In this document: in pieces, positions 7,855-64,000 of the stretch
Position numbering within the stretch: position 1 is the first letter of the stretch
Layout: each line of letters starts with the position of its first letter
Made by a program: the position numbers and the translations under genes
Notes under the pieces: generated by a model
Told to the model about the DNA's origin: nothing
Seen by the model: the letters and a program-made list of their open reading frames with translations, nothing else
The model's database searches: none
Assembly: GCA_963811085.1 (NCBI GenBank)
Contig: CAWEPV010000013.1
Location: 987,304 to 1,051,303 of the forward strand
DNA: 64,000 nt
Direction: 5' to 3'
From: an uncultured beta proteobacterium
GTDB taxonomy: Bacteria; Pseudomonadota; Gammaproteobacteria; Burkholderiales; SG8-39

Positions 7855-8407
7855 GCTGGGCTATTCCTCGCAATGCATAGATAAAGAATCGACGAATTCA
7901 AACATGCGCCGTACGCGAGCCGTCGACGGCCGCGAGGGCGGCACCCCGAGTCCGTTTCGTCATCTATTAGATGGGCAAACCAGTCTCGCTGCGGATCATC
8001 TCCGCACAGCCCGTGCGCGCAGCGGGGTATGCGGCGCATTAGGGTGCACGCCAAGCCGGGCTTATGGCAATTTTCGCTTTTTGCGCGGGATTTGTCAGCC
8101 GTAAGCGCCGCAGGGCGGATGGCGCGCGAGCGGCCAGGCAGCGTGGCGCAAACTTGGCGACAGCTTGTCTTTTCGCCGACGACTGCGGCCGCTCAACTTC
8201 CCAGCCCCGGCTTCCGAGCCGGCCGACTCGGCACATGCGGACCGCTGTCTTTCGCTGCTTTGATGGTCTCCATCCCCGCGCAATGCTCCGTGCGCCAGCG
8301 TACGGACCACACCGCAGCGGACAAAATATTCTCGGGCGAGTTTCGCTTCCTGCGCTTCGACCTGGCGCGCGTAATGAACGGAGGCGGGTGTCAGAATGTC
8401 GTTCACT

Positions 8408-49800: not shown

Positions 49801-49889
49801 CGCAATTCGTGCGCGGGGCGCTCGCGCCCGCGCGCAGCCTCGAATTGTGGGACCCGCTCGACGACCCGTCCTCGATAGGGCTACATTAG
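46884..49889 (+). CDS. 7TMR-DISM (DISMED2 + 7TM) - PAS - GGDEF - EAL membrane sensor (c-di-GMP turnover)
   Basis: 1001 aa: N-terminal TM plus extracytoplasmic domain, seven hydrophobic helices, PAS, a GGDEF domain with RVGGDEF, and an EAL domain with ...[15 protein letters not shown]. Confidence 0.85.
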
Positions 49890-49905
49890 CCCGCTTTCGA
49901 GTCGG

Positions 49906-50739
49906 TTGCGCGCGATGAAGAGGACGGTCCTCGAGCTGAGGCAGTCGAAGGGCGGGCGCCTGGTGATGCTTACCGCCTATGATTTCCCCGGCGCCAGGCT
50001 CGCGTCGGAGGCCGGCGTGGACCTTATCCTGGTGGGCGATTCGCTCGGCATGGTGGTGCTGGGCTACGAATCGACCGTGCCGGTGACCATGGAAGACATG
50101 TTGCACCACGCCAAGGCCGCGCGGCGCGGCGCGCCCGACACCTTCCTCGTCGCCGACATGCCGTTCATGTCCTACGCGAGCGGCGAGCAGGCGCTCGCAA
50201 ATGCCGCGCGCCTGATGAAGGAGGCGGGGGCCGATTCGGTCAAGCTCGAGGGCGGCCTGGACGCCGTGCCAGCGGCCGAGGCGTTGGTGCGGGCGGGTGT
50301 TCCGGTGCTGGGACACATCGGCCTGACCCCGCAGACGGCGTCGGCGCTGGGCGGCTACAAACTTCAGGGCCGCGACGAGGCCGGCGCCCGCCGGCTGCTC
50401 GAGGAGGCCTCCGCGCTCGAGCGGGCGGGCTGCTGGGGCGTGGTGCTCGAGATGGTTCCGGCGCCGCTCGCGCGCGCGATCACGCAGTCGATCGGGGTGC
50501 CCACCATCGGCATCGGCGCCGGCCCCGACTGCGACGGCCAGGTGCTGGTGTTCCACGACCTGGTCGGCCTGTTCTCCGGCTTTGCGCCGAAATTCGCCAA
50601 GCGCTACGCGGAAGCGGGCGCGCTGATCCGCGAGGCGATCGCGCGTTACGCAGCCGAAGTGCGCGCCGGCACTTTTCCCGACGCGGCGCACAGCTTCGGC
50701 ATGAGCGACGAGGTGCTGAAGCGGGTCTATGGCGGCTGA
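49906..50739 (+). CDS. panB: 3-Methyl-2-oxobutanoate hydroxymethyltransferase
   Basis: 277 aa; [33 protein letters not shown] signature. Confidence 0.9.
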
Positions 50740-52528
50740 GCGCCGCGCAGGCGAGGCGCTCGCGCTGCTGCGCCGGACCTTCGGCCACACGGAATTCCGC
50801 GGCGCGCAGGAAGACATCGTCGCGCACCTCGCCGCCGGCGGCGACGCGCTGGTGCTGATGCCGACCGGCGGCGGCAAGTCGCTTTGCTACCAGGTGCCCT
50901 CGCTGCTTCGCCCTGGCACCGGGGTCGTGGTTTCGCCGCTCATCGCCCTGATGCAGGACCAGGTGGCGGCGCTCAGGCAGCTGGGGGTGCGCGCGGCGTT
51001 CCTCAACTCGACCCAGGATGCGGCTGCGGCGCGAGAGGTCGAGCGCGCGCTGGTCGCAGGCGAGCTCGACTTGCTGTACGTCGCACCCGAGCGAGCGCTC
51101 ACGCCGCGCTGCCTCGAGCTGCTCGGGCGCAGCCGCATCGCCCTGTTCGCGATCGACGAGGCACACTGCGTGTCGCAGTGGGGGCACGATTTCCGTCCCG
51201 AGTACCTGCAGCTCTCGCTGCTGCACGAGCGCTTCCCGCAAGTCCCGCGCATCGCGCTCACCGCCACTGCCGACCCGCAGACGCGCGCCGAGATCGTCGC
51301 GCGCCTCGCGCTCGGGCAGGCACGGGTTTTCGTGTCGAGCTTCGACCGGCCCAATATTCGCTACGCAATCGTCGACAAGGTCGATCCGCGCGCGCAGCTG
51401 CTGGCGTTCATCCGCGAGGAGCACCCGGGCGAGGCCGGCATCGTGTACTGTCTCTCGCGGCGCAAGGTGGATGAGACCGCGGCCTGGCTCGCGACCCAGG
51501 GCCTTGCCGCGCTGCCCTATCACGCGGGCATGGCGGCCTCCGCGCGCACCGAGCACCAGGCGCGCTTCCAGCGCGAGGACGGAATCATCATGGTGGCGAC
51601 GATCGCCTTCGGCATGGGGATCGACAAGCCCGACGTGCGCTTCGTCGCCCACCTCGATCTGCCCAAGAGCATCGAGGGCTATTACCAGGAGACCGGGCGC
51701 GCCGGCCGCGACGGGCTGCCCGCGGACGCCTGGATGGCCTACGGCCTGGCCGATGTGGTGCAGCAGCGCCGGCTGATCGACCTGTCGGAGGCGAGCGAGG
51801 ACTACAAGCGGGTCTCCGGCGCCAAGCTCGACTCGCTGCTCGGGCTGTGCGAGACCGCCGGCTGCCGCCGGGTGCGCCTCTTGGCCTACTTCGGCGAGAC
51901 GAGCGGGCCCTGCGGCAACTGCGACACTTGCCTCGAACCGCCGCAGACCTGGGACGCGACCGACGCCGCGCGAAAGGCGCTGTCGGCGATCTACCGCACC
52001 GGACAGCGCTTCGGCGCGGTGCATCTGATCGACGTGCTGCGCGGCAAGCGCAACGAGCGCGTCGAACGCTGGGGGCACGAGGCGCTGGGCGTGTTTGGCG
52101 TCGGCGCGGAGCTCGACGAAGCAGCCTGGCGCAGCGTATTCCGGCAGCTCGTCGCCCTCGGCCTGGCGCGGGTCGACCACGACGCCCACGGCGCGCTCAG
52201 GCTGACCGAGGCGAGCCGGGCAGTGCTCAAGGGCGAGCAGGCGGTGCAGATGCGGCGCGTGGTGCCGCGCGCGGTGCGCCGCCCCCGCCGCGCCGCGCCG
52301 AGCGACGTCGCCCCGGCCGACGCGGGGCTGCTGCAGGTGCTCAAGGCCTGGCGGCGCGATGAAGCGCGCAGCCAGGGCGTGCCGGCGTACGTGATCCTGC
52401 ACGACAGCACCCTGGCCGAGATCGCCCGCGCGCGGCCGCGCGACCTCACCGCGCTCGCCGGCCTGGGTGGCATCGGCGCGAAGAAGCTCGAGCGCTACGG
52501 CGACGCGCTGCTGCACTTGATCAACTAG
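50729..52528 (+). CDS. recQ: ATP-dependent DNA helicase RecQ
   Basis: 599 aa; [23 protein letters not shown] Walker A, DEAH box, RQC and HRDC regions. Confidence 0.9.
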
Positions 52529-52532
52529 GGCT

Positions 52533-52560
52533 TGTCAAAGTAGTTTTGACAGCCTAGAAT
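52533..52560 (+). promoter_or_regulatory. Sigma70-type promoter TTGTCA-17-TAGAAT with an embedded perfect palindrome TGTCAAA-gtag-TTTGACA (operator candidate)
   Basis: -35 at 52533-52538 and -10 at 52555-52560. An 18-bp inverted repeat at 52534-52551 spans the spacer. The RBS AGGTAGAAG and the ATG at 52579 follow. Confidence 0.5.
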
Positions 52561-52578
52561 TTGGTTCAGGTAGAAGCC

Positions 52579-52839
52579 ATGAACTGCGCGGAGCAACTCG
52601 TCGTCCTATTCGGTAGCCAGGCCGACGTCGCGCGCGCATTCCAACTCGATCGCGCGGTGGTCAACAACTGGGTCAAGTCGGGCTACGTCCCGGCGCGCTG
52701 GGCGACAGAGGTCGAACGCGTGACCCAGGGCCGCATCACCGCGGTCGAAATCCTTACCGAGGCGAGCGCCAAGAAGCCGGTGCGCGTGAAATCGCGCCCC
52801 GACGACGCATCGTTCGGCATCCTGTCGGAGACTGAGCCC
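52579..52839 (+). CDS. Cro/CI-type HTH module (YdaS/DUF1019-like) reading through, without a stop codon, into the downstream aminotransferase frame
   Basis: MNCAEQLVVLFGSQADVARAFQLDRAVVNNWVKSGYVPARWATEVERVTQGRITAVEIL matches the YdaS-type Cro-like pattern (GSQ..LA..LGV...V..W...G.IP..R...IE..T.G). No in-frame stop was found before the ATG at 52840. Confidence 0.45.
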
Positions 52840-54079
52840 ATGAATACCTACGCACCGTCCAAGCGCATCCATTCGTTCCATCCGCCGCAGCGCACGCTGA
52901 TGGGCCCGGGGCCGACCGAGATTCACCCGCGCGTGCTCACCACCATGAGCCAGCCGGCGATCGGCTACCTCGACCCGATCTTCGTCGAGATGATGGAGGA
53001 GCTGAAGTCGCTGCTGCGCTACGTCTACCAGACCAAGAACCCGCTTACCTTCCCGATCTCGGGCCCGGGCTCGGTCGGGATGGAGTACTGCTTCGTCAAC
53101 CTGGTCGCGCCGGGAGACAAGGTGATCGTGTGCATCAACGGCGTGTTCGGCGGCCGCATGCTCGAGAACGTCATCCGCTGCGGCGGCGTTCCGGTGGTGG
53201 TCGAGGACAGGTGGGGCGAACCGGTCGATCCGCACAAGGTCGAGGATGCGCTGAAGAAGAACAAGGACGCCAAGATCGTCGCCTTCGTGCACGCCGAGAC
53301 CTCGACCGGCTGCCAGTCGGACGCGCAGGAGATCGCCCAGTGTCGCGCACAAGCACGGCGCGCTGGTCATCGTCGACGCGGTCACCTCGCTCGGCGGCAC
53401 GCCGGTGCGGGTCGACGAGTGGGAAATCGACGCGATCTATTCGGCCAGCCAGAAATGCCTGTCGTGCACGCCCGGCCTGTCGCCGGTGTCGTTCTCCGAG
53501 CGCGTGGTCGAACGCGTCAAGGCGCGCAAGGACAAGATCCACAGCTGGTTCATGGACATGAATTTGCTGCTGGGCTACTGGGGCGCCACCACCCGCACCT
53601 ACCACCACACAGCGCCCACCAATTCGCTGTTCGCGCTGCACGAGGCGCTGCTGCTGATCCGCGAGGAGGGGCTCGAGAACAGCTGGGCGCGCCACCACCG
53701 CCACCACGTCGCGCTCAAGTCGGGGCTCGAGGCGATGGGGCTGAAATTCCTGGTCAAAGAGGAATACCAGCTGCCGCAGATGAACGCGGTGCTGTGCCCG
53801 GAGGGCGTGAACGAGGCCGACGTGAGGAAGACCCTGCTGGGCGAATTCGGCATCGAGATCGGCGCCGGGCTCGGGCCGCTCGCGGGCAAGATCTGGCGCT
53901 TCGGCCTGATGGGCTACTCGTGCCGGCCGGACAACGTGATGCTGTGCCTGTCGGCGCTAGGCTCGGTGCTCGAGGACATGGGCCTGCCGGTGCACGTCGG
54001 CGACGCGGAAGCCGCGGCGCACGGCGCCTACGCCAGAATGCACGCGAGCGACGCGCAGCGCAAGAAACGCGCCGCCTGA
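52840..54079 (+). pseudogene. Alanine-glyoxylate / serine-pyruvate aminotransferase (class V, AGXT-like), disrupted by a frameshift near 53340-53350
   Basis: The N-part in frame 1 (MNTYAPSKRIHSFHPPQRTLMGPGPTEIHPRVL...HAETSTGCQSDAQEIAQ) and the C-part in frame 2 (HKHGALVIVDAVTSLGGTPVRVDEWEIDAIYSASQKCL...) each align along AGXT. The junction lies at cagtgtcgcgcacaagcacggc. Confidence 0.8.
54010..54078 (+). repeat. Copy A of a ~70-bp imperfect direct repeat (last 22 codons of the aminotransferase)
   Basis: gccgcggcgcacggcgcctacgccagaatgcacgcgagcgacgcgcagcgcaagaaacgcgccgcc recurs at 60325-60395 with a few substitutions (both encode AAHGAYA.MHASDAQRKKRAA). Confidence 0.6.
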
Positions 54080-54083
54080 GGGC

Positions 54084-54260
54084 CTAAAGCCCCGGGCGCT
54101 GCCAGATGGTGCTCGTCGGGCCGGCCTGGTTGAGCGTGTAGAAGTGCAGCCCGGTGCGCCGCCGCTGAGCAGGCGGTCGCACAGCTCGGTGACGACGTCG
54201 AGGCCGAAGGCGCGCATCGATGCGCTGTCGTCGCGGAAGCTCTCGAGCTTGAAGCGCATC
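54084..54260 (-). pseudogene. metF: 3'-terminal fragment of a methylenetetrahydrofolate reductase (metF) gene, itself frameshifted
   Basis: Minus-strand pieces IPRWMRFKLESFRDDSASMRAFGLDVVTELCDRLLSGG and GLHFYTLNQAGPTSTIWQRPGL* match the MetF C-terminus (IPAWM...; DFHFYTLNRAE...GL*). No upstream MetF body is present. Confidence 0.7.
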
Positions 54261-54366
54261 CAGCGCGGGATCTCGGCGCCGCGGGCGCGCTGGAGTCGTG
54301 CACGTCAATGCAGTACAGTGTCTGCCGTCTCGGGCGACACATCGGGCCGGATAAGCGCCAGCAAGC

Positions 54367-56262
54367 ATGACCGAAGACGGCTATCCTGACGCGCTGCCGC
54401 GCGGGTACCACCTGCACTGGTACCTGCTCGAGCGGGTGCTGGGGCAGGGCGGCTTCGGCATCACCTATCTGGCGCGCGACACCAACCTCGATCAGCGCGT
54501 CGCGATCAAGGAATATCTCCCGATCGACGTCGCCACGCGCCGCAACGACGCGACCGTGCGCGCGCGCACCGAGGCGCACGACGAGCGCTACCGCTGGGGG
54601 CTCGAGAGGTTCATCCGCGAGGCCCGCACGCTGGCGCGCTTCGACCACCCAAATGTCGTGCGCGTGCTCTCGGTGTTCGAGTTCAACAACACCGCCTACA
54701 TGGTGATGCGCTTCGAGGAGGGCAGCAACCTCGCCACCATCCTCGAGCAGCGCGGCACGCTGCCGGAAGGCGAGTTGCTGCGCATCCTGCTGCCGATCCT
54801 CGACGGGCTCGAGCTGGTGCACAACGCGGGGTTCATCCACCGCGACATCAAGCCGGACAACATCCACGTGCGCGCCGACGGTAGCCCGGTACTGCTCGAT
54901 TTTGGCTCCGCGCGCCAGCCCGTGGGCCATTCGCCCAGCTTGACCATCCTGGTCGCCCCCGGCTACGCGCCGTTCGAGCAGTACTACAGCAGCGGCGAGA
55001 GCCAGGGTCCGTGGAGCGACATATACGGGCTTGGGGCGACTTGCTACCGCGCCATCTGCGGCACGCCGCCGATGGACGCGATCGCACGCAGCAAGGGCGT
55101 CCTCGGCAGCGCGCGCGACGTGCTGGCGCCCGCAACCGCGGTCGGCGCGGGACGCTATTCGCCGCGCCTGCTCAAGGCGATCGATCACGCGCTCGAATTT
55201 ACCGAGCGCGATCGCCCGCAGAGCATCGCCGAATGGCGTCGGGAGCTGCTCGGCGAAGGGCAGCAGGCCGCGCTGGCGCCAGCCGCGCCGTCCGCGGCCG
55301 CGGCGCGCAGCGAGCGGCCAGCCCCCGCCTCCGGCGGAGGCTGGCCGGTTTTCCGTACGGTCCTGGCTGCGGCGGTGGCGCTCGTCGTGGTGGCCGTGCT
55401 GCTGCGTTTCTATCCGTTCTCGGGCGGTGGCAAGAGCGGGCCGCCGCCCGAGACCGCGCCCGATCCTGCAGCGCAGCTCAAGGAACGACTCGCTAAGGTC
55501 GAGCAGCAGCTCGCCGAGGAGCGGCAGCGGCAGGCCGAGGCGCTCGCGCAGCAGCAGGCGGAGGAGCGCCAGCGCGTGGAGGCGGAGCGCAAGCGCGCAT
55601 TCGAGGCCGAAGCCGCGCGTAAACGCGAGGCGGAGCAAAAGAAGCTTGCCGAGGAGCGCCAGCGCAAGCTCGCGCAGCAGGCGGAGGCCGAGCGCAAGCG
55701 CCAGGCGGAGCAAAAGAAGCATGCCGAGGAGCGCCAGCGCAAGCTCGCGCAGCAGGCGGAGGCCGAGCGCAAACGGGCTGAGCAGCAGGCTCGCCAGCAG
55801 GCAGTCCAAAGCGCGAAGCCAGCCGCAGCGCCTCCGAGCTCGGCCGCGCTGCTGGAGAAGGCCGACCGCGACTACACCGCCGGCAACTACGCCGAAGCGC
55901 TTGCGGCGCTCAAGCCGCTGGCCGCGCGCGGCAACGCCAACGCCCAGCTCAGGCTCGGCAAGTCCTACGCGGAGGGGCACGGCGTTGCGCACGACGACGC
56001 GCGCGCGGCGATCTGGTATCGGAAGGCCGCGTTGCAGGGCAACCCGGAGGCGCAGTTGCAGCTCGGCGAGCTGTACGCGAGCGGGCGCGGCGTGCCGCAT
56101 AGCGATTTCGAGGCTTATGTGTGGTTGACCGCTGCGGTCCGCGGCGGCAACGCGGCGGCCAAGGCGCTGCAGGGGCGTGTCGCGAAGTTGCTGCAGCCTG
56201 TCGAAGCCGAGCAAGCGGGCAAGCTGGTGACCAATCTGCCGCTCCCCGACGCCGCCAAGTAA
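54367..56262 (+). CDS. Ser/Thr protein kinase with a single TM, a coiled-coil repeat region and C-terminal Sel1/TPR-like repeats
   Basis: Hanks kinase motifs GQGGFGITYLA, VAIKEY, HRDIKPDNI, DFGSA and APGYAPFEQ. TM segment VLAAAVALVVVAVLL. Repeats AEERQRKLAQQAEAERKR. Sel1-like region YRKAALQGNPEAQLQLGELYASGRGV. Confidence 0.85.
   Translation: MTEDGYPDALPRGYHLHWYLLERVLGQGGFGITYLARDTNLDQRVAIKEYLPIDVATRRNDATVRARTEAHDERYRWGLERFIREARTLARFDHPNVVRVLSVFEFNNTAYMVMRFEEGSNLATILEQRGTLPEGELLRILLPILDGLELVHNAGFIHRDIKPDNIHVRADGSPVLLDFGSARQPVGHSPSLTILVAPGYAPFEQYYSSGESQGPWSDIYGLGATCYRAICGTPPMDAIARSKGVLGSARDVLAPATAVGAGRYSPRLLKAIDHALEFTERDRPQSIAEWRRELLGEGQQAALAPAAPSAAAARSERPAPASGGGWPVFRTVLAAAVALVVVAVLLRFYPFSGGGKSGPPPETAPDPAAQLKERLAKVEQQLAEERQRQAEALAQQQAEERQRVEAERKRAFEAEAARKREAEQKKLAEERQRKLAQQAEAERKRQAEQKKHAEERQRKLAQQAEAERKRAEQQARQQAVQSAKPAAAPPSSAALLEKADRDYTAGNYAEALAALKPLAARGNANAQLRLGKSYAEGHGVAHDDARAAIWYRKAALQGNPEAQLQLGELYASGRGVPHSDFEAYVWLTAAVRGGNAAAKALQGRVAKLLQPVEAEQAGKLVTNLPLPDAAK
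55631..55780 (+). repeat. Two tandem 75-bp coding repeats (~96% identical) inside the kinase gene
   Basis: gcggagcaaaagaagc(t/a)tgccgaggagcgccagcgcaagctcgcgcagcaggcggaggccgagcgcaa... occurs twice back to back, giving AEQKK(L/H)AEERQRKLAQQAEAERKR twice. Confidence 0.8.
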
Positions 56263-56300
56263 CGGTAGTATTCCGCCCAAGCGGATCGAGGAGGCAAGGC

Positions 56301-56930
56301 ATGGCGAGCGCGATGCCCGGGTCGTGCGTCGTGTACCGATGCGCGCAGCTGTGCGCGATGATGCTCGTGGCGCTCGCTTCGGGCTGCGTGAGCGAGCAGC
56401 AGAAGATCAGCGCAACACGGGATGTGAACGCCGTGTTCCGCACGGAGTACGAGCGTGTCCTGGCCGAGGACGGAACGCACATCTACCACGTACCGCGCGA
56501 CGAGGCATTCCAGGCCTTGCGCGTCGCTCTGGGCGGGCTCGGCATGCGGCTCGCCGAGCAATCGCCCGATCTCGGGTATTTGAGCGTGTATGCTTCCGCA
56601 CCCGATCCGCTCACGCGCGACGAGTGGCTGCGGGCGGCACAGGCGGACCTGCCGAAGTTTCGCGGCATACTCGAGCAGCACCTGGGCCTTGCGGCATGGT
56701 TCGTATCGTTCGAGCCGCAGGGCCTCGACGTCGTCATCAACGCGACGACGATCCAGGTGCGCGGCGGAACGGCCGTCTCGCTCACCATGCGCATGCGCGA
56801 AGTCGCGCCGCCGAAGTCGGGTTATCCGCGCCGCGAGTATGCCCCGCCGACGGCCGTGCGCATGGGGCTGCGCAAGATCTGGGGCGCGCTGGAGCGAGAG
56901 CTTCCAGCCGCATCGGGCCGGCGCTCCTGA
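56301..56930 (+). CDS. Lipoprotein of unknown function
   Basis: ATG at 56301 with a GGAGG RBS; lipobox LASGC; about 190 aa of mature protein with no recognisable domain. Confidence 0.6.
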   Translation: MASAMPGSCVVYRCAQLCAMMLVALASGCVSEQQKISATRDVNAVFRTEYERVLAEDGTHIYHVPRDEAFQALRVALGGLGMRLAEQSPDLGYLSVYASAPDPLTRDEWLRAAQADLPKFRGILEQHLGLAAWFVSFEPQGLDVVINATTIQVRGGTAVSLTMRMREVAPPKSGYPRREYAPPTAVRMGLRKIWGALERELPAASGRRS

Positions 56931-56942
56931 TCCAGCCGGTGC

Positions 56943-59900
56943 TCAGCTTTGCGCGGGCGCCCCGAGGCTCGCGTACACCGCCTGCGTCTCGGGCGAAGGC
57001 ATGATCTTCAGCCGCGTCGACAGCACAGTGCGCAGCCGCTCATAGGTGGCGCGCGCCTCGGACGGGTCCGCGCCGCGCTGGTAGCACTGCATGAGGCTTC
57101 GATATGGCGCCTCGAACAACGCATCCGCCTCGATGATGCGCAAGTAGCAGTCGACGGCTGCCTCGCGCTGCCCTGACTCCTCGTGGCGCTTGGCAACCCG
57201 GCCGAGGCAGCGCAGCAGGCGCGAGCGGATCTGCTCGCGGCAGGCGATATAGCTCGGCTGCTCGGACTCGTCAGGCAGAAACGGCCCGCGGTAGAGCGCG
57301 AACGTTTCGTCGGCCAGCGCCTGCAGGGCCGGCAGGCCCGCCTCGGCGGCCGGTGCGCGCAGCGCCTCGTCGAGCGCCGCCAGCACGCACTCGAGCGCCC
57401 AGGTATCGACCCAGATGAGCGCCGGGTTGAGGCTCAGGCGCGCGTCGCGCAGCACGAGCGCCTCGTCGTCGCCGAGCAGCCGGCGCAGCCGGTGCAGGGT
57501 GGCGGTGAGCGACTTGTGGGCGTAGTCCGCCTCGACGTGCGGCCACAAGGCGTCGGCCAGCTGATCGGCGCGCACATTCTGCCCACCCAGGGCAACGAGC
57601 ACCTTCATCAGCTCCATGGGCCGGCCAGGGGCCTTTCCCGAGAACTCGACGGACACGGTCTGGCGCAGGAGCTGAAACCCCCCGAGCAGGTGCACGTGAA
57701 ATGGCCAGGGCCAATCACGCAGGCGCAGTGGGGCAGGCTGCGGCAGCAGCCGGCGCGAGCGCACCAACGCGCGCGCATACTCGGTCTCGATGCCGTGGCG
57801 CAGGGCCAGCGCGCAAACGTCGGCGACGGCCTGCGAGCGCCACCAGGGGGCGTGCCGGAAGCCGTGCTCGCGTCCAAGCGCGAAGGCGCTCGCGACCGAC
57901 CCGAGCGCGGCGCGCTCGTCGTTCATCGCGGCAGCCGCCTCGGCCGCCGCGAGCTGCACGATGAAGCGCAGCAGGACGCTGCGCATCCGGTCCGCGAGCG
58001 CCTGCGCGCTTCTCAGCTGTGCTTCGCAGCCGCGCTGGTCGCCCGTACGGGCGAGCATGTCGGCAAGCGCCGCGCGCCCCAGGCATTCTAGCCAGGGGAT
58101 CCCCGCTTCGACGGCCAGCTGCAACGCGCTCTTCGCGTCGAGGCTTGCGCTCGCCACATCGCCTTCGAGCGCCGCGAGCCAGCCGCGCAGGTAATGCACC
58201 AGCGCGCGGTCGGCGCGGCGCAGGCGCGCGCCGCCGCCCTCCAGCGCGCGCAGCTCGTCCCGCGCCCCGTCCCGGTCGCCGGAGCCGAGCGACGCCGCCA
58301 TCGAAATGAGGCGCAACCAGTCGTCGTAGACATGCACGCCCTCGCGCTCGGCCGCCAGGAGCGCGCTGCTCGCGACCTCGCGCGCGCGCGAGTGCGCGCC
58401 GGTAAGTAAGTAGTGCAGCGCCGCGGCGAGAGCGTTGGCGGTCGCATCGAGCGCAGGCAGGCCGGGAACCGGCGCGACCAGCGTGTCGGCCGCCGCCTCG
58501 GCGGCGACGAGATTGCCCTGCATCAGCGCCACCATGGCCCGCGCGACGGCCAGCTCGGCCCCTTCGAGCCAGTCGCCGAGCTCGGCGTTGCCGGGATCGC
58601 GCAGCAGCAGCGCGGCGATCAGTAGCGCGCGCGCCTCCGCGTCGCGGCCCTCGCTTCCGCCCTCGCGCAGCAGGCCCGCGAGCACGACGGTCCAGTGATC
58701 GAGCTGCGCGAGATCGTCGAACTCCAGGATCGTCGCCTTGATCAGGCCGCAACAGCTGCGCATCATCCCGCGACGGTCGGTGGCATCGCGAAACCTCCCG
58801 AATGCTTGCTCGAGGTAGCGCCGCGCCGCCCTGGGGCTCGCGTGCAGCCGGCAGGCGCCGGAGGCGTAGAGCAGCTCCGCATCGGCGTGCAACAGCGCCG
58901 GCGGCAGCAGCTCCAGCCATCCGCCGAGTGTCTCGCTGCGCCCTTGATCGAGCATGAGCTGCGCCTCGGCGGCGGCGATACGGGCGACCTGCGCCCAGTC
59001 GCGGCACTCTACGAGCAGCGACACCGCGTCCTCGGTCTGCCCGGCTTCGCGCAGCAGCGCCGCCGCGCGCTGCAGCTGCTCGGTCCCGAGCACTTCGGGC
59101 TGCTCAAGCGCGGCCCTGCTGCGCAGGAACTCGCGCAGCAGCGGATGCAGCTGGTAGATGCGCCCCTCTTCCGACAGCACCTCGCTCACGAAGTAGTCGT
59201 TGCGCGCCAGGTTGAGCAGCAGCCGTTCCGCCTTCGGCTCCTCGGCGAGCGTCTGCGCCACTTCCGCGGTCATGCGCGGCAGGCATGCGACGTGCGCCAG
59301 AAAGCGCTTCGTGTCGGGCTCGAAGCGGTCGTAGATCTCGCCGGCGAGGTAATCGAAGATCACCTGGGGAGCCGCGTCCTCGGGCAGCTCCGCGACCTGG
59401 CCGGAGAGCTTGGTGTGCTCGAGCATCAGCACCAAGCCGGCCGCCCAACCCTGCGTGCGCTCGTGCAGCTGCGAGGCAGCCTCCGCCGAGAGCTTCTGTC
59501 CGCGCAGCTGGGCGATCGCGCCCAGCTCATCCGGCGCGATACGCAACTCTTCCCAGCCGACGCACGCCATCTCGCCCGCCACGCGCATGCGCGCCAGGGC
59601 CCCCGGTGGCTCGCTACGGCTGGTCACAATCACCGTGCATTGCTTGGGTATCTGCGCGAATGCGGCTTCAAGCACCGCGTGCAGCGTGCTCTCGGGCGGC
59701 ACCTCGTGCAGGCTGTCGAGCACCAGCGCAAAGGGCGGCTTGGCGCGCGCGAACAGCTGGCGGAAGAACAGGCGCGCGAACGATGCGACATCCGAGCGGT
59801 ACTGCGGCGTGAACGCGGGAAACTCGCGACTCTGGCCGCCCTCGAGCCTGCGCGCGGCGTGCCCGAGATAGTGGAAGAACGTCGCCACGTCCGCGTCGTC

Positions 59901-60251
59901 GGGATCGACCTGGTACCACAGGCAGCGGTAACCGCGCGCTTCGACGTAGCTCGCGGCAAGGGTGGTCTTGCCCGCGCCTGGCGGCCCGGAAATCCAGGCC
60001 ACCGTGCGCCCCGCAGCCCCGTCGAGGCGCGCGAACAGGCGCTGCCTCGGAACGATGGAGCCGATCGCCGGGCGCGTGGTCTTGGCGAAAGCGACGGTGC
60101 GCTGCCCAGCCTTAACCACGCGGCCCCCTCCCTTGACGTTCCATCGCCTCACGCTGCACGGGCCCGCGGCCCGCCCGGCATCGATCATACCCACCAGACG
60201 GCTCAGCTGCCCAGATGCACCAGATACTTCGCGCCGTCGGAGAACGTGCAC
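56943..60251 (-). CDS. Large transcriptional regulator: MalT-like AAA/STAND ATPase + TPR-like helical repeats + C-terminal SARP module (OmpR-type winged helix followed by BTAD)
   Basis: N-terminus FAKTTRPAIGSIVPRQRLFARLD...ISGPPGAGKTTLAASYV (MalT-like Walker A); a long Ala/Leu-rich helical repeat region; C-terminus LLGGFQLLRQTVSVEF...RADQLADALWP (trans_reg_C) followed by the BTAD-like FALYRGPFLPDESEQPSYIACREQIRSRLLRCL. The true start may lie inside the listed ORF. Confidence 0.8.
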   Translation of the reverse strand: MHVLRRREVSGASGQLSRLVGMIDAGRAAGPCSVRRWNVKGGGRVVKAGQRTVAFAKTTRPAIGSIVPRQRLFARLDGAAGRTVAWISGPPGAGKTTLAASYVEARGYRCLWYQVDPDDADVATFFHYLGHAARRLEGGQSREFPAFTPQYRSDVASFARLFFRQLFARAKPPFALVLDSLHEVPPESTLHAVLEAAFAQIPKQCTVIVTSRSEPPGALARMRVAGEMACVGWEELRIAPDELGAIAQLRGQKLSAEAASQLHERTQGWAAGLVLMLEHTKLSGQVAELPEDAAPQVIFDYLAGEIYDRFEPDTKRFLAHVACLPRMTAEVAQTLAEEPKAERLLLNLARNDYFVSEVLSEEGRIYQLHPLLREFLRSRAALEQPEVLGTEQLQRAAALLREAGQTEDAVSLLVECRDWAQVARIAAAEAQLMLDQGRSETLGGWLELLPPALLHADAELLYASGACRLHASPRAARRYLEQAFGRFRDATDRRGMMRSCCGLIKATILEFDDLAQLDHWTVVLAGLLREGGSEGRDAEARALLIAALLLRDPGNAELGDWLEGAELAVARAMVALMQGNLVAAEAAADTLVAPVPGLPALDATANALAAALHYLLTGAHSRAREVASSALLAAEREGVHVYDDWLRLISMAASLGSGDRDGARDELRALEGGGARLRRADRALVHYLRGWLAALEGDVASASLDAKSALQLAVEAGIPWLECLGRAALADMLARTGDQRGCEAQLRSAQALADRMRSVLLRFIVQLAAAEAAAAMNDERAALGSVASAFALGREHGFRHAPWWRSQAVADVCALALRHGIETEYARALVRSRRLLPQPAPLRLRDWPWPFHVHLLGGFQLLRQTVSVEFSGKAPGRPMELMKVLVALGGQNVRADQLADALWPHVEADYAHKSLTATLHRLRRLLGDDEALVLRDARLSLNPALIWVDTWALECVLAALDEALRAPAAEAGLPALQALADETFALYRGPFLPDESEQPSYIACREQIRSRLLRCLGRVAKRHEESGQREAAVDCYLRIIEADALFEAPYRSLMQCYQRGADPSEARATYERLRTVLSTRLKIMPSPETQAVYASLGAPAQS

Positions 60252-60324
60252 ATGCCGGCACCCTGGCGCGCGTTGGCCATCCGATAGCCGCAGCTCAGGA
60301 ACGCGCCGCTGCGGCTGTGGGCGC

Positions 60325-60395
60325 TCGCCACGCCGCGGCGCACGGCGCCTACGCCAGCATGCACGCCAGCGACGCGCAGCGGAAGAAGCGCGCGG
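60325..60395 (+). repeat. Copy B of the ~70-bp direct repeat (orphan duplicate of the aminotransferase 3' end)
   Basis: gccgcggcgcacggcgcctacgccagcatgcacgccagcgacgcgcagcggaagaagcgcgcggcc. No aminotransferase body is upstream of it. Confidence 0.6.
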
Positions 60396-60401
60396 CCTAT
60401 G

Positions 60402-61233
60402 CTAGTTCTTCGCCGAAGCTGCAGCCGTAAAGCGCCCGGCGAGATCGGGCTGGGAGCCGTAGCGCTCGAGGGTAGGCTGCATCGTCTGCGCGAGCGCATC
60501 GAGCCGTTCGGCGGGCGCAGGGTGGGTCTTGAACATCAGCGCGAGGCTTGAGTCCGCGGGATTGATCGCCTCGAGCGTCTGCAGTACCGCGGGCAGGCCG
60601 TAGGCGTCGTAGCCGGCGCGGGCCGCGATCACCACGCCGAGGCGGTCGGCCTCGAGCTCGTCGGACTTGTCGAGCCCGCGCGCGTAAAGCTCGGTGCCGG
60701 CGGAGATCAGCTTGTTGCGCGCCTCGCTGTTGCCGCGGTTGGCGAGCGCGAGCGAGAGGGCGTCCGCGGCGAGGCCGGTCCTCGCGTTCTTCTGCATCGC
60801 CGCCAGGTGATGCTTGCGCAGCACGTGCGAGATCTCGTGCGCCAGCACGCCGGCCAGCTCGGCTTCGCTGCGCAGGCGCGCGTACAGGCCGCGGGTGATG
60901 AACACGTTGCCGCCCGGTGTGGCGAAAGCGTTCACGGTGTCGGTATCGAGCACGCCGAAATGCCACGGCAGGCCGGGGCGCTCGGTATGCAGCGCGAGCC
61001 AGCGCCCGACGCTGTTGACGTAGCGCTGCAGGCGCTCGTCCGGTACCAGCGGCGCCGAGCAGACGCGCCGCCACGGCGCGCCCGATCGAGATCTCCTGCG
61101 GCTCGTCGACCTCGCTGCTCGCCTGCTGGATCTTCTTGACCGTGCCGACCAGCCTGTTGAGGTCGAGTGAGAACTGCGCCTGGGCGGGAGGCGCGGCTGC
61201 GGCGAGTAGCAAGGCGCAGAGGGCGGCGCGCAC
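60402..61233 (-). pseudogene. M48-family zinc metalloprotease (YcaL/BepA-like), disrupted by a frameshift near 61035-61045
   Basis: The N-part frame gives signal peptide MRAALCALLLAAAAPPAQA...EPQEISIGRAVAARLLGAA. A second frame continues PLVPDERLQRYVNSVGRWLALHTERPGLPWHFGVLDTDTVNAFATPGG...HEISHVL (HExxH). The junction lies in a ggcgccgc run. Confidence 0.7.
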
Positions 61234-61289
61234 GTTCAGGGCCCCGTGGGGTAATCGACGGACTGCGATTCGAGCTTGCCCCTGCGCGC

Positions 61290-61537
61290 AAACGCCTTCG
61301 CCGCATCTTCGCCAGGCTCTTTTCGTCGATGTCGATCATGACGATGTCCGGGTCCGGCGCGAGCCGCACGGCGTGCAGCCGCACGAACAAGTCGACCAGG
61401 CGGTTCTCGAGCGGGGCGGAGAGATGCAGCCAGAATATTTCCGCCGCTGCGAGCGCGCCGAGGAATAGGGGTCGGTTCAACGTGATCTGCGCGAACGGTA
61501 GTGCTGCAGAGTGCCCGCGCGGCGGCGCGGGCGTCAA
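61290..61537 (-). pseudogene. Truncated CHASE2-domain gene fragment (N-terminal ~80 codons only)
   Basis: MTPAPPRGHSAALPFAQITLNRPLFLGALAAAEIFWLHLSAPLENRLVDLFVRLHAVRLAPDPDIVMIDIDEKSLAKM matches a CHASE2 N-terminus (TM helix, then ...D..F.LR....P..IV.IDIDE.SL). The sequence then turns to low-complexity text and runs into the M48 gene. Confidence 0.5.
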
Positions 61538-64000
61538 GCCGGAAGCTGGTAGCCCTTGTCGCCGAACAGCCGCAGGCAGGCGTCCACGGCGTCCGCATCG
61601 AAGAGCTGGCCGCGTCCGTTGGCGATCTCTTCCAGCGCGGCGTCCAGGCCGCGCGCCGGACGGTAAGGACGGTGCGAGCCCATCGACTCGACGACGTCGG
61701 CAACCGCAAGGATGCGCGCCTCGAGGATGATCTGCTCGCCCTTGAGGCCCTGCGGGTAGCCGCTGCCGTCGAGGCGCTCGTGGTGCTGCCGCGCCACTTC
61801 GGCGATCGGCCAGGGGAAGCGGATGTCCTTCAGGATGTCGTATCCGGACTGCGCGTGCATCTTGACGATCTCGTACTCCGCCGGCTGAAGGCGCGTCGGC
61901 TTGGACAGGATTTCGGCCGGCACCGAGATCTTGCCGATGTCGTGCAGGCTGCCGGCGATGTCCAGTCCGCGGCAGCGCTCGGCGTCCAGCCCCATCTCGT
62001 CGGCGATCGCCGCCGCGAGCTTGCCGACCCGGAGTTCGTGGCCCGCCGTGTAGGGGTCGCGGATCTCGACCATCGTCGACACCGCCCTGATGGTGCCGGT
62101 CATGGTTTCCTCGAGCTGCGCCATGTACTCTCGCACGCGATTGCCCGAAGTCTTGTACTCGGAGATGTCTTCTACCTGGACCACCAGGTGGCGCAGCTTG
62201 CCCAGCGAATCGCAGACGCGCGCGGCGTTGGCCCTGATCCAGACCGTCCGTCCGTCCTTGCGCACGATCTGTCCCTCGGTGCGCACGGCCTCGCGCTCAC
62301 CACTGAGCATCTGCGCGAACAGCTTCAGCAGCGGCTCGACACTTTTCGGCGCAAGGAACTTCTGGAACGGCTCGCCGACCAGCTCGGCTGCAGGGTATCC
62401 CGTGATGGCGCAGATCGAGCGATTGACTTTAACGGTGCGCCCGTCGGTCCCAATGAGGACGATGCCGATGCTGGCGCTTTCGAACGCCTGCTTGAACTGC
62501 TCTTCGCTGTCGAGCAGTTTGCGCTCGGCCTCGAGCCGGCGGTCGTTTTCGGCGAAGCGCCCCATGGCAAAGCCCACGTCGCGCGCCGTCTGCTCGAACA
62601 GCTGCACGATTTCGGCGTCGAAGAAGCCGGGAATCGCCGAGTTGTAGCTCAGGGTGCCGACAATCTCGTCCTCGACCCGCAAAGGAAAGGCCGCCGACGT
62701 CGCGACGCGCAATTCCCTCGCGGCCGCGCGCCATGGTTCGAGGGCGGGATCATGCATGAAGTCTTCAATGATGACTGTGCGGCCCTCGCGGATCGCTGTC
62801 CCGATCGGGCCACGGCCGCGCGGGTCATTGGCGTCGGTGCTGATGTCGGCGTTCGCCAGATAGGTCTCGAGCCCGCGTGACATGGCGACCGGCCGGACTT
62901 TGCCGCTCCCCTTCTCGACCATGCTGATCCAGGCGCCAACCAGACCGCCTTCGTCGACCGCGACGCGGCAGGTCTCACGCATCACTTCGTCCAGCGAGTT
63001 CGAACGCACCAGTGCTTCGTTGGTTTGCCACAGGGTCTGATACAGGCGATTGAGCGATTGAATGCGCGCTTCCGTGCTCTTGCGCGCCGAGATATCGTGA
63101 GCGACAGCGTGAAAAAAGCCGCGCCCGTCGACTTCGAAGTAGCGCGCGCTGATCTCGACCGGAAAGGTCGAGCCGTCCGCCCGCTGGTGGACAGACTCGA
63201 ACATCAGCTCGCCGCGCTTCTCGATTTCGCGCTTGTCACGTGCCAGTGATTCGAGCGAGTCGGGAGCCCGCAGCTCCGCAATGCGCTTGCCGAGCAGCGC
63301 TGAGTGCGGGTACCCGTATATTGATACGGCCCGCTCGTTCGCTTCGAGGATCCGCCCGTCGGCGTCGTACAGAAAGGTCGGGTCGCGCGCGTAGGGCGCC
63401 AGCTGTCGGAAGTGTTCCTCGAGCGCGGCGCGCTCGAGCGCAGCCTTTTGCTGGAACAGCACGTCCGCGAACTGCCGACGGCGCTCGAGCCAGAACACCG
63501 CCAGGGCGGCGAGCGTGATCAGCAGCACCGCCCACGCGGCGATGATCTGTGTGCTCCGCGTCAGCGGCGCGAGCGCCTCGGCGCGATCGATCTTCACCAG
63601 AATACGCCAGTCGGTCCCGCTGATCGGTGCGTAGGCATAAAGCACCGGCACGCCGCGGCGATCGACGCCTTCGGCTACGCCGTGCCGGCCCTTGAGTGCC
63701 AACATGGCGGGAAGGTCGCGCCTATGCAGCGCGACCGGTGGCGACGCGCCCTCCGTGCCGCGCCTGAGCGGGCTGAGGTGCACCACGGTGTTGCCCTGGG
63801 TGCGGATGAGCACGCTTTCGCTGGAGCTGAAGCTGGACAGCGGATCCTCCAGCAGCGAGTACAGCACGTGGCGCGGGTCCCAGTACAAGACGATGACGTC
63901 CTCGCTAACGCGCGCCGCTGCTTCGAGCTCGCGGCTCGGCACCACGAATGCCAGGCGCAGGCCTGTGCCCGCGCCGAAGCGCTGCGGCCCGAGCATCACC
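61534..64000 (-). CDS. PAS/GAF-containing HD-GYP phosphodiesterase (c-di-GMP), N-terminus possibly beyond the window end
   Basis: C-terminal HD-GYP domain (GHELRVGKLAAAIADEMG...LHDIGKISVPAEIL...HHERLDGSGYPQGL); upstream GAF and PAS regions and a TM segment (IIAAWAVLLITLAALAVFWL). Confidence 0.8.
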   Translation of the reverse strand, partial: VMLGPQRFGAGTGLRLAFVVPSRELEAAARVSEDVIVLYWDPRHVLYSLLEDPLSSFSSSESVLIRTQGNTVVHLSPLRRGTEGASPPVALHRRDLPAMLALKGRHGVAEGVDRRGVPVLYAYAPISGTDWRILVKIDRAEALAPLTRSTQIIAAWAVLLITLAALAVFWLERRRQFADVLFQQKAALERAALEEHFRQLAPYARDPTFLYDADGRILEANERAVSIYGYPHSALLGKRIAELRAPDSLESLARDKREIEKRGELMFESVHQRADGSTFPVEISARYFEVDGRGFFHAVAHDISARKSTEARIQSLNRLYQTLWQTNEALVRSNSLDEVMRETCRVAVDEGGLVGAWISMVEKGSGKVRPVAMSRGLETYLANADISTDANDPRGRGPIGTAIREGRTVIIEDFMHDPALEPWRAAARELRVATSAAFPLRVEDEIVGTLSYNSAIPGFFDAEIVQLFEQTARDVGFAMGRFAENDRRLEAERKLLDSEEQFKQAFESASIGIVLIGTDGRTVKVNRSICAITGYPAAELVGEPFQKFLAPKSVEPLLKLFAQMLSGEREAVRTEGQIVRKDGRTVWIRANAARVCDSLGKLRHLVVQVEDISEYKTSGNRVREYMAQLEETMTGTIRAVSTMVEIRDPYTAGHELRVGKLAAAIADEMGLDAERCRGLDIAGSLHDIGKISVPAEILSKPTRLQPAEYEIVKMHAQSGYDILKDIRFPWPIAEVARQHHERLDGSGYPQGLKGEQIILEARILAVADVVESMGSHRPYRPARGLDAALEEIANGRGQLFDADAVDACLRLFGDKGYQLPA

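What the first reader, a model, noticed from the sequence alone, without database searches (positions are those of the whole stretch)
54010..60395. Seventy-bp direct repeat of a gene terminus brackets a 6.3-kb kinase/regulator module
The last ~22 codons of the aminotransferase (54010-54078) recur at 60325-60395 with only a few substitutions, in the same orientation. There is no aminotransferase body in front of the second copy. Integrative elements that target the 3' end of a gene and carry a replacement copy of that end leave exactly this pattern (attL and attR containing the gene end). No integrase is left inside, so if this was an integration it is now immobilised.
Basis: seen in the sequence. 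Interest (0 to 1): 0.6.

Follow-up and report, generated by a model that had tools for sequence, protein, structure and literature searches.

The report
Gene-end relic marking a recombination scar
The 67-base repeat is real, but it is a leftover piece of the aminotransferase gene from DNA swapping between related uncultured Burkholderiales strains at a variable chromosome spot, not the attachment sites of a mobile element; this is an ordinary kind of scar.

Summary
Observation confirmed. Bases 54011-54077 (the last 22 codons plus the T of the stop of the HTH-aminotransferase gene, AT) recur at 60332-60398, 62/67 identical, in direct orientation, and only twice in the window.

The att-site reading is not supported.
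- There is no integrase and no room for one.
- Copy 1 is followed by a 200-nt 3' relic of metF (54084-54286, minus strand).
- Copy 2 is fused, through a 10-nt microhomology (GCCGCGGCGC), to a truncated small-lipoprotein gene (SLP', 60203-60341).
- To its right lie a frameshifted M48 gene and a 5' stub of a CHASE2-cyclase homologue.
- The complete metF lies just beyond the window, so its 3' end is a second, nested repeat (91% identical).

All 5 differences between the AT copies, and 15 of 19 between the metF copies, are at third codon positions. The copies are therefore alleles from different lineages.

In about 90 related contigs, AT and metF are convergent anchors around a variable island. 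The kinase module sits there in several contexts and is never flanked by AT tails.

Best explanation: import anchored by homology on one side and closed by an illegitimate, microhomology-mediated join on the other (HFIR-like). Interest is low.

The parts
52561..54079 (+). Cro/YdaS-type HTH fused in frame to a class-V aminotransferase (AT). It is intact (499 aa) in the near-identical contigs L081/L082. In this window it carries one extra A at 53339, which shifts the frame.
54011..54077 (+). Repeat copy 1: the last 22 codons plus the T of the TGA stop of the complete AT gene. Its haplotype equals the AT tails of the close relatives L090/L092, except for a private AGC>AGA change.
54084..54286 (-). 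metF' relic: the last ~66 codons of methylenetetrahydrofolate reductase, with a 1-nt deletion near 54150. It is 91% identical to the 3' end of the complete metF, which lies ~0.6 kb beyond the window end (L081 15243-16076).
54283..54286 (.). Junction J2: the interior of metF joined to the region upstream of the kinase (0-4 nt of overlap). The junction is shared with L090.
54367..56262 (+). Hanks-type Ser/Thr kinase with a hydrophobic (membrane-like) stretch, a charged repeat region and C-terminal Sel1 repeats (cargo).
56301..56930 (+). Probable lipoprotein of 209 aa (lipobox-like LASGC near the N-terminus), with no family match (cargo).
56943..60119 (-). MalT-like STAND ATPase with a C-terminal winged-helix/BTAD domain, 1058 aa (cargo).
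60203..60341 (-). SLP' relic: the last ~45 codons of a small lipoprotein gene that is complete (about 156 aa) in L001 and L005. It contains a sigma-70-like consensus match (60213-60184) upstream of the regulator start.
60332..60341 (.). Junction J3: the 10-nt microhomology GCCGCGGCGC, present both in the SLP gene (L005 version) and at the start of the AT tail.
60332..60398 (+). Repeat copy 2 (AT' relic): 22 codons of an AT tail with no gene body. TAT replaces the stop codon, and the copy ends 3 nt before the M48 stop.
60402..61233 (-). M48 peptidase gene with a 5-nt deletion (one CGGCG unit) near 61050 that separates the signal-peptide part from the catalytic part. The deletion is present in all strains seen; only a 183-aa ORF is called.
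61301..61537 (-). Y' relic: the first ~75 codons of a homologue of gene Y (about 611 aa in L066, read as a CHASE2 cyclase from its sequence motifs, not profile-tested). The rest is deleted, with the junction near 61303-61307.
61534..64000 (-). PAS/GAF/HD-GYP signalling protein (972 aa in L081; it runs off the window). It is followed outside the window by complete metF, a panE-like gene, a small holin-family ORF and ahcY.

Best explanation
The repeat is a recombination scar in a variable island that lies between two convergent, conserved anchor genes: HTH-AT on the left and metF-(panE)-ahcY on the right.

Inferred history. A lineage whose AT gene was followed by M48 and the CHASE2-cyclase homologue took up DNA from a related lineage. 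That DNA carried AT, a metF relic, the kinase, the lipoprotein, the regulator and SLP. On the left it recombined by ordinary homology in or upstream of AT. On the right it was closed by an illegitimate join, at a 10-nt microhomology between the incoming SLP gene and the resident AT gene 22 codons before its stop. This is homology-facilitated illegitimate recombination (HFIR), or an equivalent one-sided event.

The incoming AT end became the working end (copy 1). The resident last 67 nt were stranded as copy 2, next to the old neighbours, which are now decaying. An earlier event of the same kind, mirrored on the metF side, left the metF relic beside AT.

Shown: the anatomy, the junction sequences, the allelic nature of the copies, the absence of recombinase genes, and the variability of the site. 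Inferred: the order of events, which copy is resident, and the enzymology (RecA plus end-joining or annealing at microhomology). The repeat itself has no function. At most it is a substrate for RecA-mediated loss of the 6.3-kb segment.
For: 1. J3: SLP homology (L005, L001) runs to 60341-60347 and AT homology starts at 60332. The shared decamer GCCGCGGCGC is present in both parent sequences.
2. J2: metF homology ends, and kinase-upstream homology (L005 10351 onward) starts, at 54283-54286.
3. A nested second repeat exists: metF' (54092-54286) against the complete metF 3' end (L081 15250-15446), 91% identical plus a 1-nt deletion.
4. The divergence is allelic, not decay. AT copies: 5/5 differences at third codon positions, P=0.0038. 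metF copies: 15/19, P=6e-5. The variants occur in the functional AT genes of relatives.
5. Site variability: 80 species-level relatives share the AT ... metF/ahcY backbone with 0-10 kb of different genes in between. The minimal state, AT facing metF directly, is seen in L003, L010, L016, L088 and L089.
6. The kinase module is found in at least three other micro-contexts, without AT-tail repeats.
7. The genes right of copy 2 are relics of the arrangement commonest in the clade, AT-X-M48-Y-metF.
8. In L092 identity to the window jumps from 82% upstream to 93% in HTH-AT, as expected if AT is exchanged by homologous recombination.
9. HFIR junctions typically show 3-10 bp of microhomology, and insertion is coupled to deletion (PMC3240628).
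Against: No pre-event allele (AT directly facing M48 with the copy-2 haplotype) was found, so the recipient state is inferred. Gene X, which normally separates AT and M48, is absent, so the copy 2/M48 junction (60398-60402) needs an additional unexplained deletion. At least two events are required, because J2 is shared with the roughly 6% divergent L090 while J3 is documented only in strains at least 99% identical. The mirror scenario, with a homologous anchor in metF and copy 2 as the imported piece, fits equally well. A 10-nt GC-only decamer in a 70% G+C genome is weaker evidence than in a balanced genome. Natural competence, or any other route of DNA entry, is unknown for these uncultured bacteria.
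Confidence: 0.62

Rival explanations
1. Circle plus single crossover. A 6.3-kb circle (AT tail-metF'-kinase-lipoprotein-regulator-SLP') formed by illegitimate recombination between the two GCCGCGGCGC decamers. It then integrated, Campbell-fashion and RecA-dependently, through its 67-nt AT tail into another lineage's AT gene, duplicating the tail.
For: The spacing of the two decamers equals the repeat spacing (6321 nt), so the circle junction would be exactly J3. Circularisation followed by a single crossover is the commoner outcome in E. coli, and it duplicates the homologous segment (PMC3240628). The repeat ends exactly where the homology between the two contexts ends, at the stop codon.
Against: Only 67 nt of 93% identical homology would have to support the crossover. 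Copy 1 carries a complete natural haplotype (L090/L092 type) rather than a hybrid one. No circular form or empty site was seen.
Confidence: 0.17
2. An integrative element targeted the AT 3' end by site-specific recombination, carrying a replacement gene end. The repeats are attL/attR, and the integrase was later lost.
For: Integrative elements usually target a site in a conserved gene and preserve its function (PMC7192596). The repeat covers the gene end, and the two copies are different alleles.
Against: There is no integrase, excisionase or remnant, and all DNA is accounted for. Relics of chromosomal genes (metF', SLP') sit between the repeats and the cargo, and J3 lies at a microhomology inside a gene that is complete in relatives. 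There is no second AT tail and no integrase at this site in about 90 relatives. The cargo occurs at other junctions in the same hotspot. No tRNA or known RNA gene is present.
Confidence: 0.05
3. Internal origin. A tandem duplication of the AT-to-island region arose within one genome, and deletions then removed most of the second copy.
For: The two copies resemble each other (62/67) at least as much as either resembles any relative's tail; only L009 equals this for copy 1. Both share the lineage-specific HASD codons.
Against: A dead copy should change at all codon positions, yet 5/5 differences are third-position. Even if copy 1 stayed under selection, this is expected only about 3% of the time (my estimate from 22 third-position sites of 67). 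The same holds for metF' (15/19). This model also needs many precise deletions.
Confidence: 0.1
4. Assembly or chimera artefact.
For: The source is an uncultured population, and Logan contigs break at the repeat.
Against: Identical junctions occur in independent assemblies from different projects, and in a strain 1% divergent.
Confidence: 0.01

Closest known systems
Homology-facilitated illegitimate recombination (HFIR), described in Streptococcus pneumoniae, Acinetobacter baylyi, Pseudomonas stutzeri and E. coli conjugation (PMC3240628 and its references 1-3)
   Same: One flank is continuous homology and the other is an illegitimate join at a short microhomology (here 10 nt; 3-10 bp is typical). 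Insertion is coupled to loss of resident DNA (SLP 5' part, X). The donor is a diverged relative.
   Different: It is inferred here from natural genomes, not observed. The insert (at least 6 kb) is larger than the roughly 1-kb laboratory events. Two nested events are needed. Competence of the organism is unknown.
Integrative genetic elements that insert in the 3' end of a conserved gene and replace that end (attL/attR direct repeats; PMC7192596)
   Same: A direct repeat of a gene terminus brackets accessory genes, and the gene keeps a complete reading frame (in L081/L082) thanks to the incoming copy.
   Different: There is no integrase. The repeat edges are defined by a truncated chromosomal gene and by the stop codon. 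There is no precise empty site, and the cargo is found elsewhere in the same hotspot without the repeats.
Campbell-type integration of a circular DNA by a single homologous crossover (duplication of the homologous segment; PMC3240628)
   Same: It would yield exactly two direct copies of the homologous segment flanking the insert.
   Different: The homology is very short (67 nt, 93% identical) and no hybrid haplotype is seen. It remains a live alternative (see rival explanations).
Chromosomal hotspots of gene gain and loss between conserved core genes (general knowledge of bacterial pangenome organisation; not retrieved here)
   Same: The AT-metF interval holds a different gene set in almost every related species, while the flanks are conserved.
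   Different: Here the flanking genes themselves left short relics inside the island, which exposes the joining mechanism.

Membership tests
Integrase-mediated integrative element (genomic island, prophage or ICE) with attL/attR | A tyrosine or serine recombinase gene (or remnant) inside the element, usually next to one att site | tested here: not met
   Pfam on all ORFs gives a kinase, a lipoprotein and a STAND/BTAD regulator. The only non-genic stretches (54080-54366, 60120-60401, 61234-61533) are metF', SLP'+AT' and Y' relics. A six-frame profile scan was not accepted by the tool, so this rests on the accounting of the DNA.
Integrase-mediated integrative element (genomic island, prophage or ICE) with attL/attR | Relatives show a precise empty site equal to one repeat copy, with the flanks joined | tested here: not met
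   No AT-M48 junction in 80 + 6 related loci. The closest relatives have AT facing metF (L088, L089) or AT facing HD-GYP (L091, L092).
Integrase-mediated integrative element (genomic island, prophage or ICE) with attL/attR | The same element in other genomes sits at the same att and is flanked by the same repeat | tested here: not met
   The module is present in L005 (after X), L002/L007 (after AT) and L090 (after a shorter metF'). There is a single AT tail wherever the sequence is available.
Integrase-mediated integrative element (genomic island, prophage or ICE) with attL/attR | Direct repeats abut element DNA, not fragments of unrelated chromosomal genes | tested here: not met
   metF' follows copy 1. 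SLP' precedes copy 2 and overlaps it by 10 nt.
HFIR-type product (homologous anchor plus illegitimate join) | Illegitimate junction with a short (3-10 bp) microhomology present in both parental sequences | tested here: met
   GCCGCGGCGC occurs in L005 SLP and in the AT tail. The window switches from one to the other within it.
HFIR-type product (homologous anchor plus illegitimate join) | The inserted DNA and the duplicated anchor fragment come from a diverged donor | tested here: met
   Divergence between the copies is at third codon positions only (5/5 for AT; 15/19 for metF). The variants are segregating in relatives.
HFIR-type product (homologous anchor plus illegitimate join) | Insertion coupled to deletion of resident DNA at the illegitimate end | tested here: inconclusive
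   The SLP 5' part, X and most of Y are missing relative to relatives. Which losses belong to the joining event cannot be told without the parental alleles.
HFIR-type product (homologous anchor plus illegitimate join) | A homologous crossover on the other side (a donor/recipient mosaic breakpoint) | tested here: inconclusive
   The identity jump in L092 (82% upstream, 93% in HTH-AT) shows that AT is exchanged between lineages. The breakpoint of this particular event was not located.
HFIR-type product (homologous anchor plus illegitimate join) | RecA dependence and uptake of linear DNA | not testable with these tools
   The organism is uncultured.

The most novel reading that the evidence does not exclude
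The 6.3-kb segment (AT tail-metF'-kinase-lipoprotein-regulator-SLP') behaves as an integrase-free shuttling cassette. It loops out as a circle through the 67-nt repeats (or the 10-nt decamers) and re-enters other lineages by RecA-mediated crossover in the conserved AT tail. The gene-end relic would then be its functional attachment sequence rather than a dead scar.
Probability: 0.07. Interest if true: 0.5.

Novelty: new member of a known kind. Interest (0 to 1): 0.2.

Why it matters
It is a clean natural example, in uncultured soil and sediment Burkholderiales, of how accessory gene blocks are exchanged at a hotspot between conserved genes without any mobile-element machinery. Each one-sided event strands a short, allele-divergent fragment of an anchor gene. 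Such fragments can be mistaken for att sites by island-finding logic that relies on direct repeats of gene ends. Three tests used here can be reused to separate the two cases: a truncated neighbour gene at the repeat edge, microhomology at that edge, and divergence confined to third codon positions. Beyond that, nothing here changes current understanding.

Tried and rejected
- tRNA/tmRNA and Rfam scans of 50-64 kb: no tRNA or tmRNA gene, and only one chance-level Rfam match (E=0.47, far below gathering).
- Base composition: no sharp break at the repeat edges.
- Terminator/promoter scan: nothing in either repeat copy. There is one promoter-like match in SLP', upstream of the regulator.
It was replaced by accounting for every base through homology.
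- PADLOC and NCBIfam on the cargo: only generic kinase-domain and MalT-like hits, with no defence-system or mobile-element assignment.
- Search for an AT-M48 empty site in 80 species-level genomes, 6 JGI contigs and the contigs holding the exact M48, kinase and lipoprotein proteins: none found.
- Comparison of M48 C-termini to explain the copy 2/M48 junction: too variable to be informative.
- Logan contigs stop at 60337 and 60361. I first read this as a possible empty-site branch. It is better explained by a 35-nt stretch shared with an AGC-type AT tail in the same samples.
- Random sequencing error as the cause of the frameshifts: rejected for M48 and metF', which are shared by all assemblies and are not homopolymer changes. 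It remains open for the extra A at 53339, which is unique to this window.
Full report
**1. The observation**

Bases 54011-54077 and 60332-60398 are a 67-nt direct repeat, 62/67 identical, spaced 6321 nt apart. A 50-nt probe with up to three mismatches finds only these two sites in the window, and none in shuffled sequence. Copy 1 is the last 22 codons plus the first base of the TGA stop of a class-V aminotransferase, AT. Copy 2 has no AT body in front of it.

**2. Gene map**

| Coordinates | Strand | Feature |
|---|---|---|
| 50729-52528 | + | RecQ |
| 52561-54079 | + | Cro/YdaS-type HTH fused in frame to AT |
| 54084-54286 | - | Last ~66 codons of metF, with a 1-nt deletion (relic metF') |
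| 54367-56262 | + | Hanks-type Ser/Thr kinase with Sel1 repeats |
| 56301-56930 | + | Probable lipoprotein, 209 aa |
| 56943-60119 | - | MalT-like STAND ATPase with winged-helix/BTAD C-terminus |
| 60203-60341 | - | Last ~45 codons of a small lipoprotein gene (relic SLP') |
| 60332-60398 | + | AT tail, copy 2 (relic AT') |
| 60402-61233 | - | M48 peptidase with a 5-nt deletion near 61050 |
| ~61301-61537 | - | First ~75 codons of a homologue of gene Y, read as a CHASE2 cyclase (relic Y') |
| 61534 to window end | - | PAS/GAF/HD-GYP protein |

No tRNA or tmRNA gene lies in 50-64 kb, and the Rfam scan of 52-62 kb gave only one chance-level match (E=0.47). Apart from the short spacers between genes, no stretch is left unexplained, so there is no room for an integrase or a remnant of one.

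**3. The structure is real**

The exact kinase, lipoprotein and M48 proteins occur on independent contigs.
- L081/L083/L093 (ENA ERZ25039549, contig_15115) equals window 49330-64000 except for one base.
- L087 (JGI Ga0315540) is 99.05% identical over 58653-64000 and has the identical SLP'/AT'/M48 junction.
- The Logan contig L094 carries the junction up to 60361, and L084-L086 start at 60337. These breaks bracket a 35-nt stretch that copy 2 shares with an AGC-type AT tail, which does occur in close relatives.

L081 and L083 also show what lies beyond the window: HD-GYP (972 aa), a complete metF, a panE-like gene, a small holin-family ORF and ahcY.

**4. A second, nested repeat**

The metF' relic (54092-54286) is 91% identical to the 3' end of the complete metF (L081 15250-15446). 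The locus therefore reads:

AT - [AT tail 1] - [metF tail 1] - kinase, lipoprotein, regulator - SLP' - [AT tail 2] - M48, Y', HD-GYP - [metF tail 2] - rest of metF

The 3' ends of both convergent flanking genes have left a fragment inside the island.

**5. The junctions**

At the right-hand junction, J3, homology to the complete SLP gene of L005 and L001 runs to 60341-60347. Homology to AT starts at 60332. The decamer GCCGCGGCGC (60332-60341) is present in both parental sequences, and the window switches from one to the other inside it.

At the left-hand junction, J2, metF homology stops at 54283-54286. Homology to the kinase upstream region starts at the same place; in L005 that region begins right after the stop of gene X.

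The right edge of the AT repeat is simply the stop codon. That is where two AT alleles sitting in different contexts cease to be homologous.

**6. The copies are alleles, not decay products**

All five differences between the AT copies are at third codon positions (P = 0.0038). Fifteen of 19 differences between metF' and metF are also third-position (P = 6e-5).

The same variants are found in the functional AT genes of close relatives. L090 and L092 carry the copy-1 haplotype except for AGC in place of AGA. L091 carries the GCC variant of copy 2, and L010 and L027 carry its 3' end. Each fragment therefore diverged while it was part of a working gene in another lineage, and was then brought alongside its counterpart.

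**7. Comparative context**

All 80 species-level relatives (uncultured Burkholderiales MAGs, AT 85-96% identical at protein level) have HTH-AT. In most of those whose contigs reach far enough, metF and/or ahcY lie downstream on the opposite strand, with 0-10 kb of variable genes in between.

| State | Loci |
|---|---|
| AT facing metF directly (minimal) | L003, L010, L016, L088, L089 |
| AT-X-M48-Y-metF/panE-ahcY (commonest) | e.g. L066, L073, L054, L039 |
| AT-X-SLP-metF (no kinase module) | L001 |
| AT-X-kinase-lipoprotein-regulator-SLP-metF | L005 |
| AT-kinase... | L002, L007 |
| AT-metF' (shorter)-kinase-lipoprotein | L090 |
| AT-HD-GYP... | L091, L092 |

No locus has a second AT tail, and none has AT directly facing M48. 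Twenty genes sampled downstream of AT in 15 further relatives are ordinary metabolic, transport or signalling genes or have no family match; none is an integrase or transposase. In L092, identity to the window jumps from 82% upstream to 93% in HTH-AT, as expected if AT itself is exchanged between lineages.

**8. Decay around copy 2**

I compared 23.8 kb of coding sequence with relatives. Frameshifts occur only in AT (53339), metF' (~54150) and M48 (~61050).
- The M48 lesion is a 5-nt deletion of one CGGCG unit, shared by all strains.
- The AT lesion is a single extra A found only in this window. AT is intact (499 aa) in L081 and L082.

AT', M48 and Y' therefore look like the decaying remains of the clade's common AT-X-M48-Y arrangement.

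**9. Interpretation**

The simplest account is an import of DNA from a related lineage. It was anchored by homologous recombination in or upstream of AT. At the other end it was closed by an illegitimate join at the decamer shared by the incoming SLP gene and the resident AT tail. This matches the definition of homology-facilitated illegitimate recombination, including the 3-10 bp microhomology and the coupling of insertion with deletion (PMC3240628).

The metF' relic records an earlier, mirror-image event anchored in metF. That event is older, because J2 is shared with L090 at about 94% identity.

I cannot tell which AT copy is resident, and the mirror scenario fits equally well.

A live alternative is excision of a 6321-bp circle between the two decamers, followed by a single RecA crossover in the 67-nt tail. 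The same paper reports this as the commoner outcome in E. coli, and it produces a duplication.

It fails every defining test that could be run here.

**10. The cargo**

The kinase, lipoprotein and STAND/BTAD regulator travel together (L002, L005, L090 and the window). They give only generic family hits. I read them as an accessory signalling module of unknown input. A sigma-70-like consensus match upstream of the regulator lies inside SLP'. That may be why this relic has been retained, but it is only a consensus match.

**11. Verdict**

It is wrong on mechanism: there are no att sites and there is no integrative element. The feature is a recombination scar of a known kind at a gene-content hotspot. 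Interest is low.

Noticed in passing
window 52561-54079; L081 3250-4749; all loci L001-L080: The class-V aminotransferase is translationally fused to an N-terminal Cro/YdaS-type HTH domain, with no stop between them; a single 499-aa product is called in L081/L082. The HTH sits immediately upstream of AT in all 80 relatives. Continuous ORFs were verified in L001, L005, L066 and L091. An HTH-aminotransferase fusion of this type (not GntR/MocR-like) may be worth a look as a possible regulator-enzyme.
   Followed up: partly
window 53339: A single extra A relative to the otherwise identical contig L081 (0 mismatches in 14.67 kb) and to L082. It frameshifts AT at codon ~168. It is either a strain-specific inactivation or a consensus error in the source assembly.
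   Followed up: partly
window 54092-54286 and L081 15250-15446 (about 64580-64776, just outside the window): A second direct repeat: a 197-nt metF 3'-end relic, 91% identical to the complete metF, bracketing the whole 10.3-kb island. In L090 the relic has lost a further 100 nt (window 54181-54280).
   Followed up: yes
window ~61045-61055: The M48 peptidase carries a 5-nt deletion (one unit of a CGGCG direct repeat) that separates the signal-peptide part from the catalytic part. It is shared by all strains recovered, so the gene is probably dead or expressed as a truncated 183-aa protein.
   Followed up: partly
window 61301-61537: The first ~75 codons of a homologue of gene Y (about 611 aa in relatives, read as a CHASE2 cyclase) survive. 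The remaining ~2 kb is deleted, with the junction at 61303-61307.
   Followed up: partly
window 55497-55782: Imperfect repeats with spacings of 45-126 nt inside the kinase gene encode an E/R/K/Q/A-rich stretch between a hydrophobic segment and the Sel1 repeats. Contigs in the Logan and JGI sets start or break here (L094-L096).
   Followed up: no
L092 2311-7670 vs 8403-9954: Identity to the window jumps from about 82% (RecQ and upstream) to 92.8% (HTH-AT), suggesting recent homologous exchange of the AT gene between lineages.
   Followed up: no
L083 4251-4634 (outside the window): A small ORF with a Phage_holin_4_2 domain sits between ahcY and the panE-like gene in the conserved methionine-cycle cluster.
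   Followed up: no
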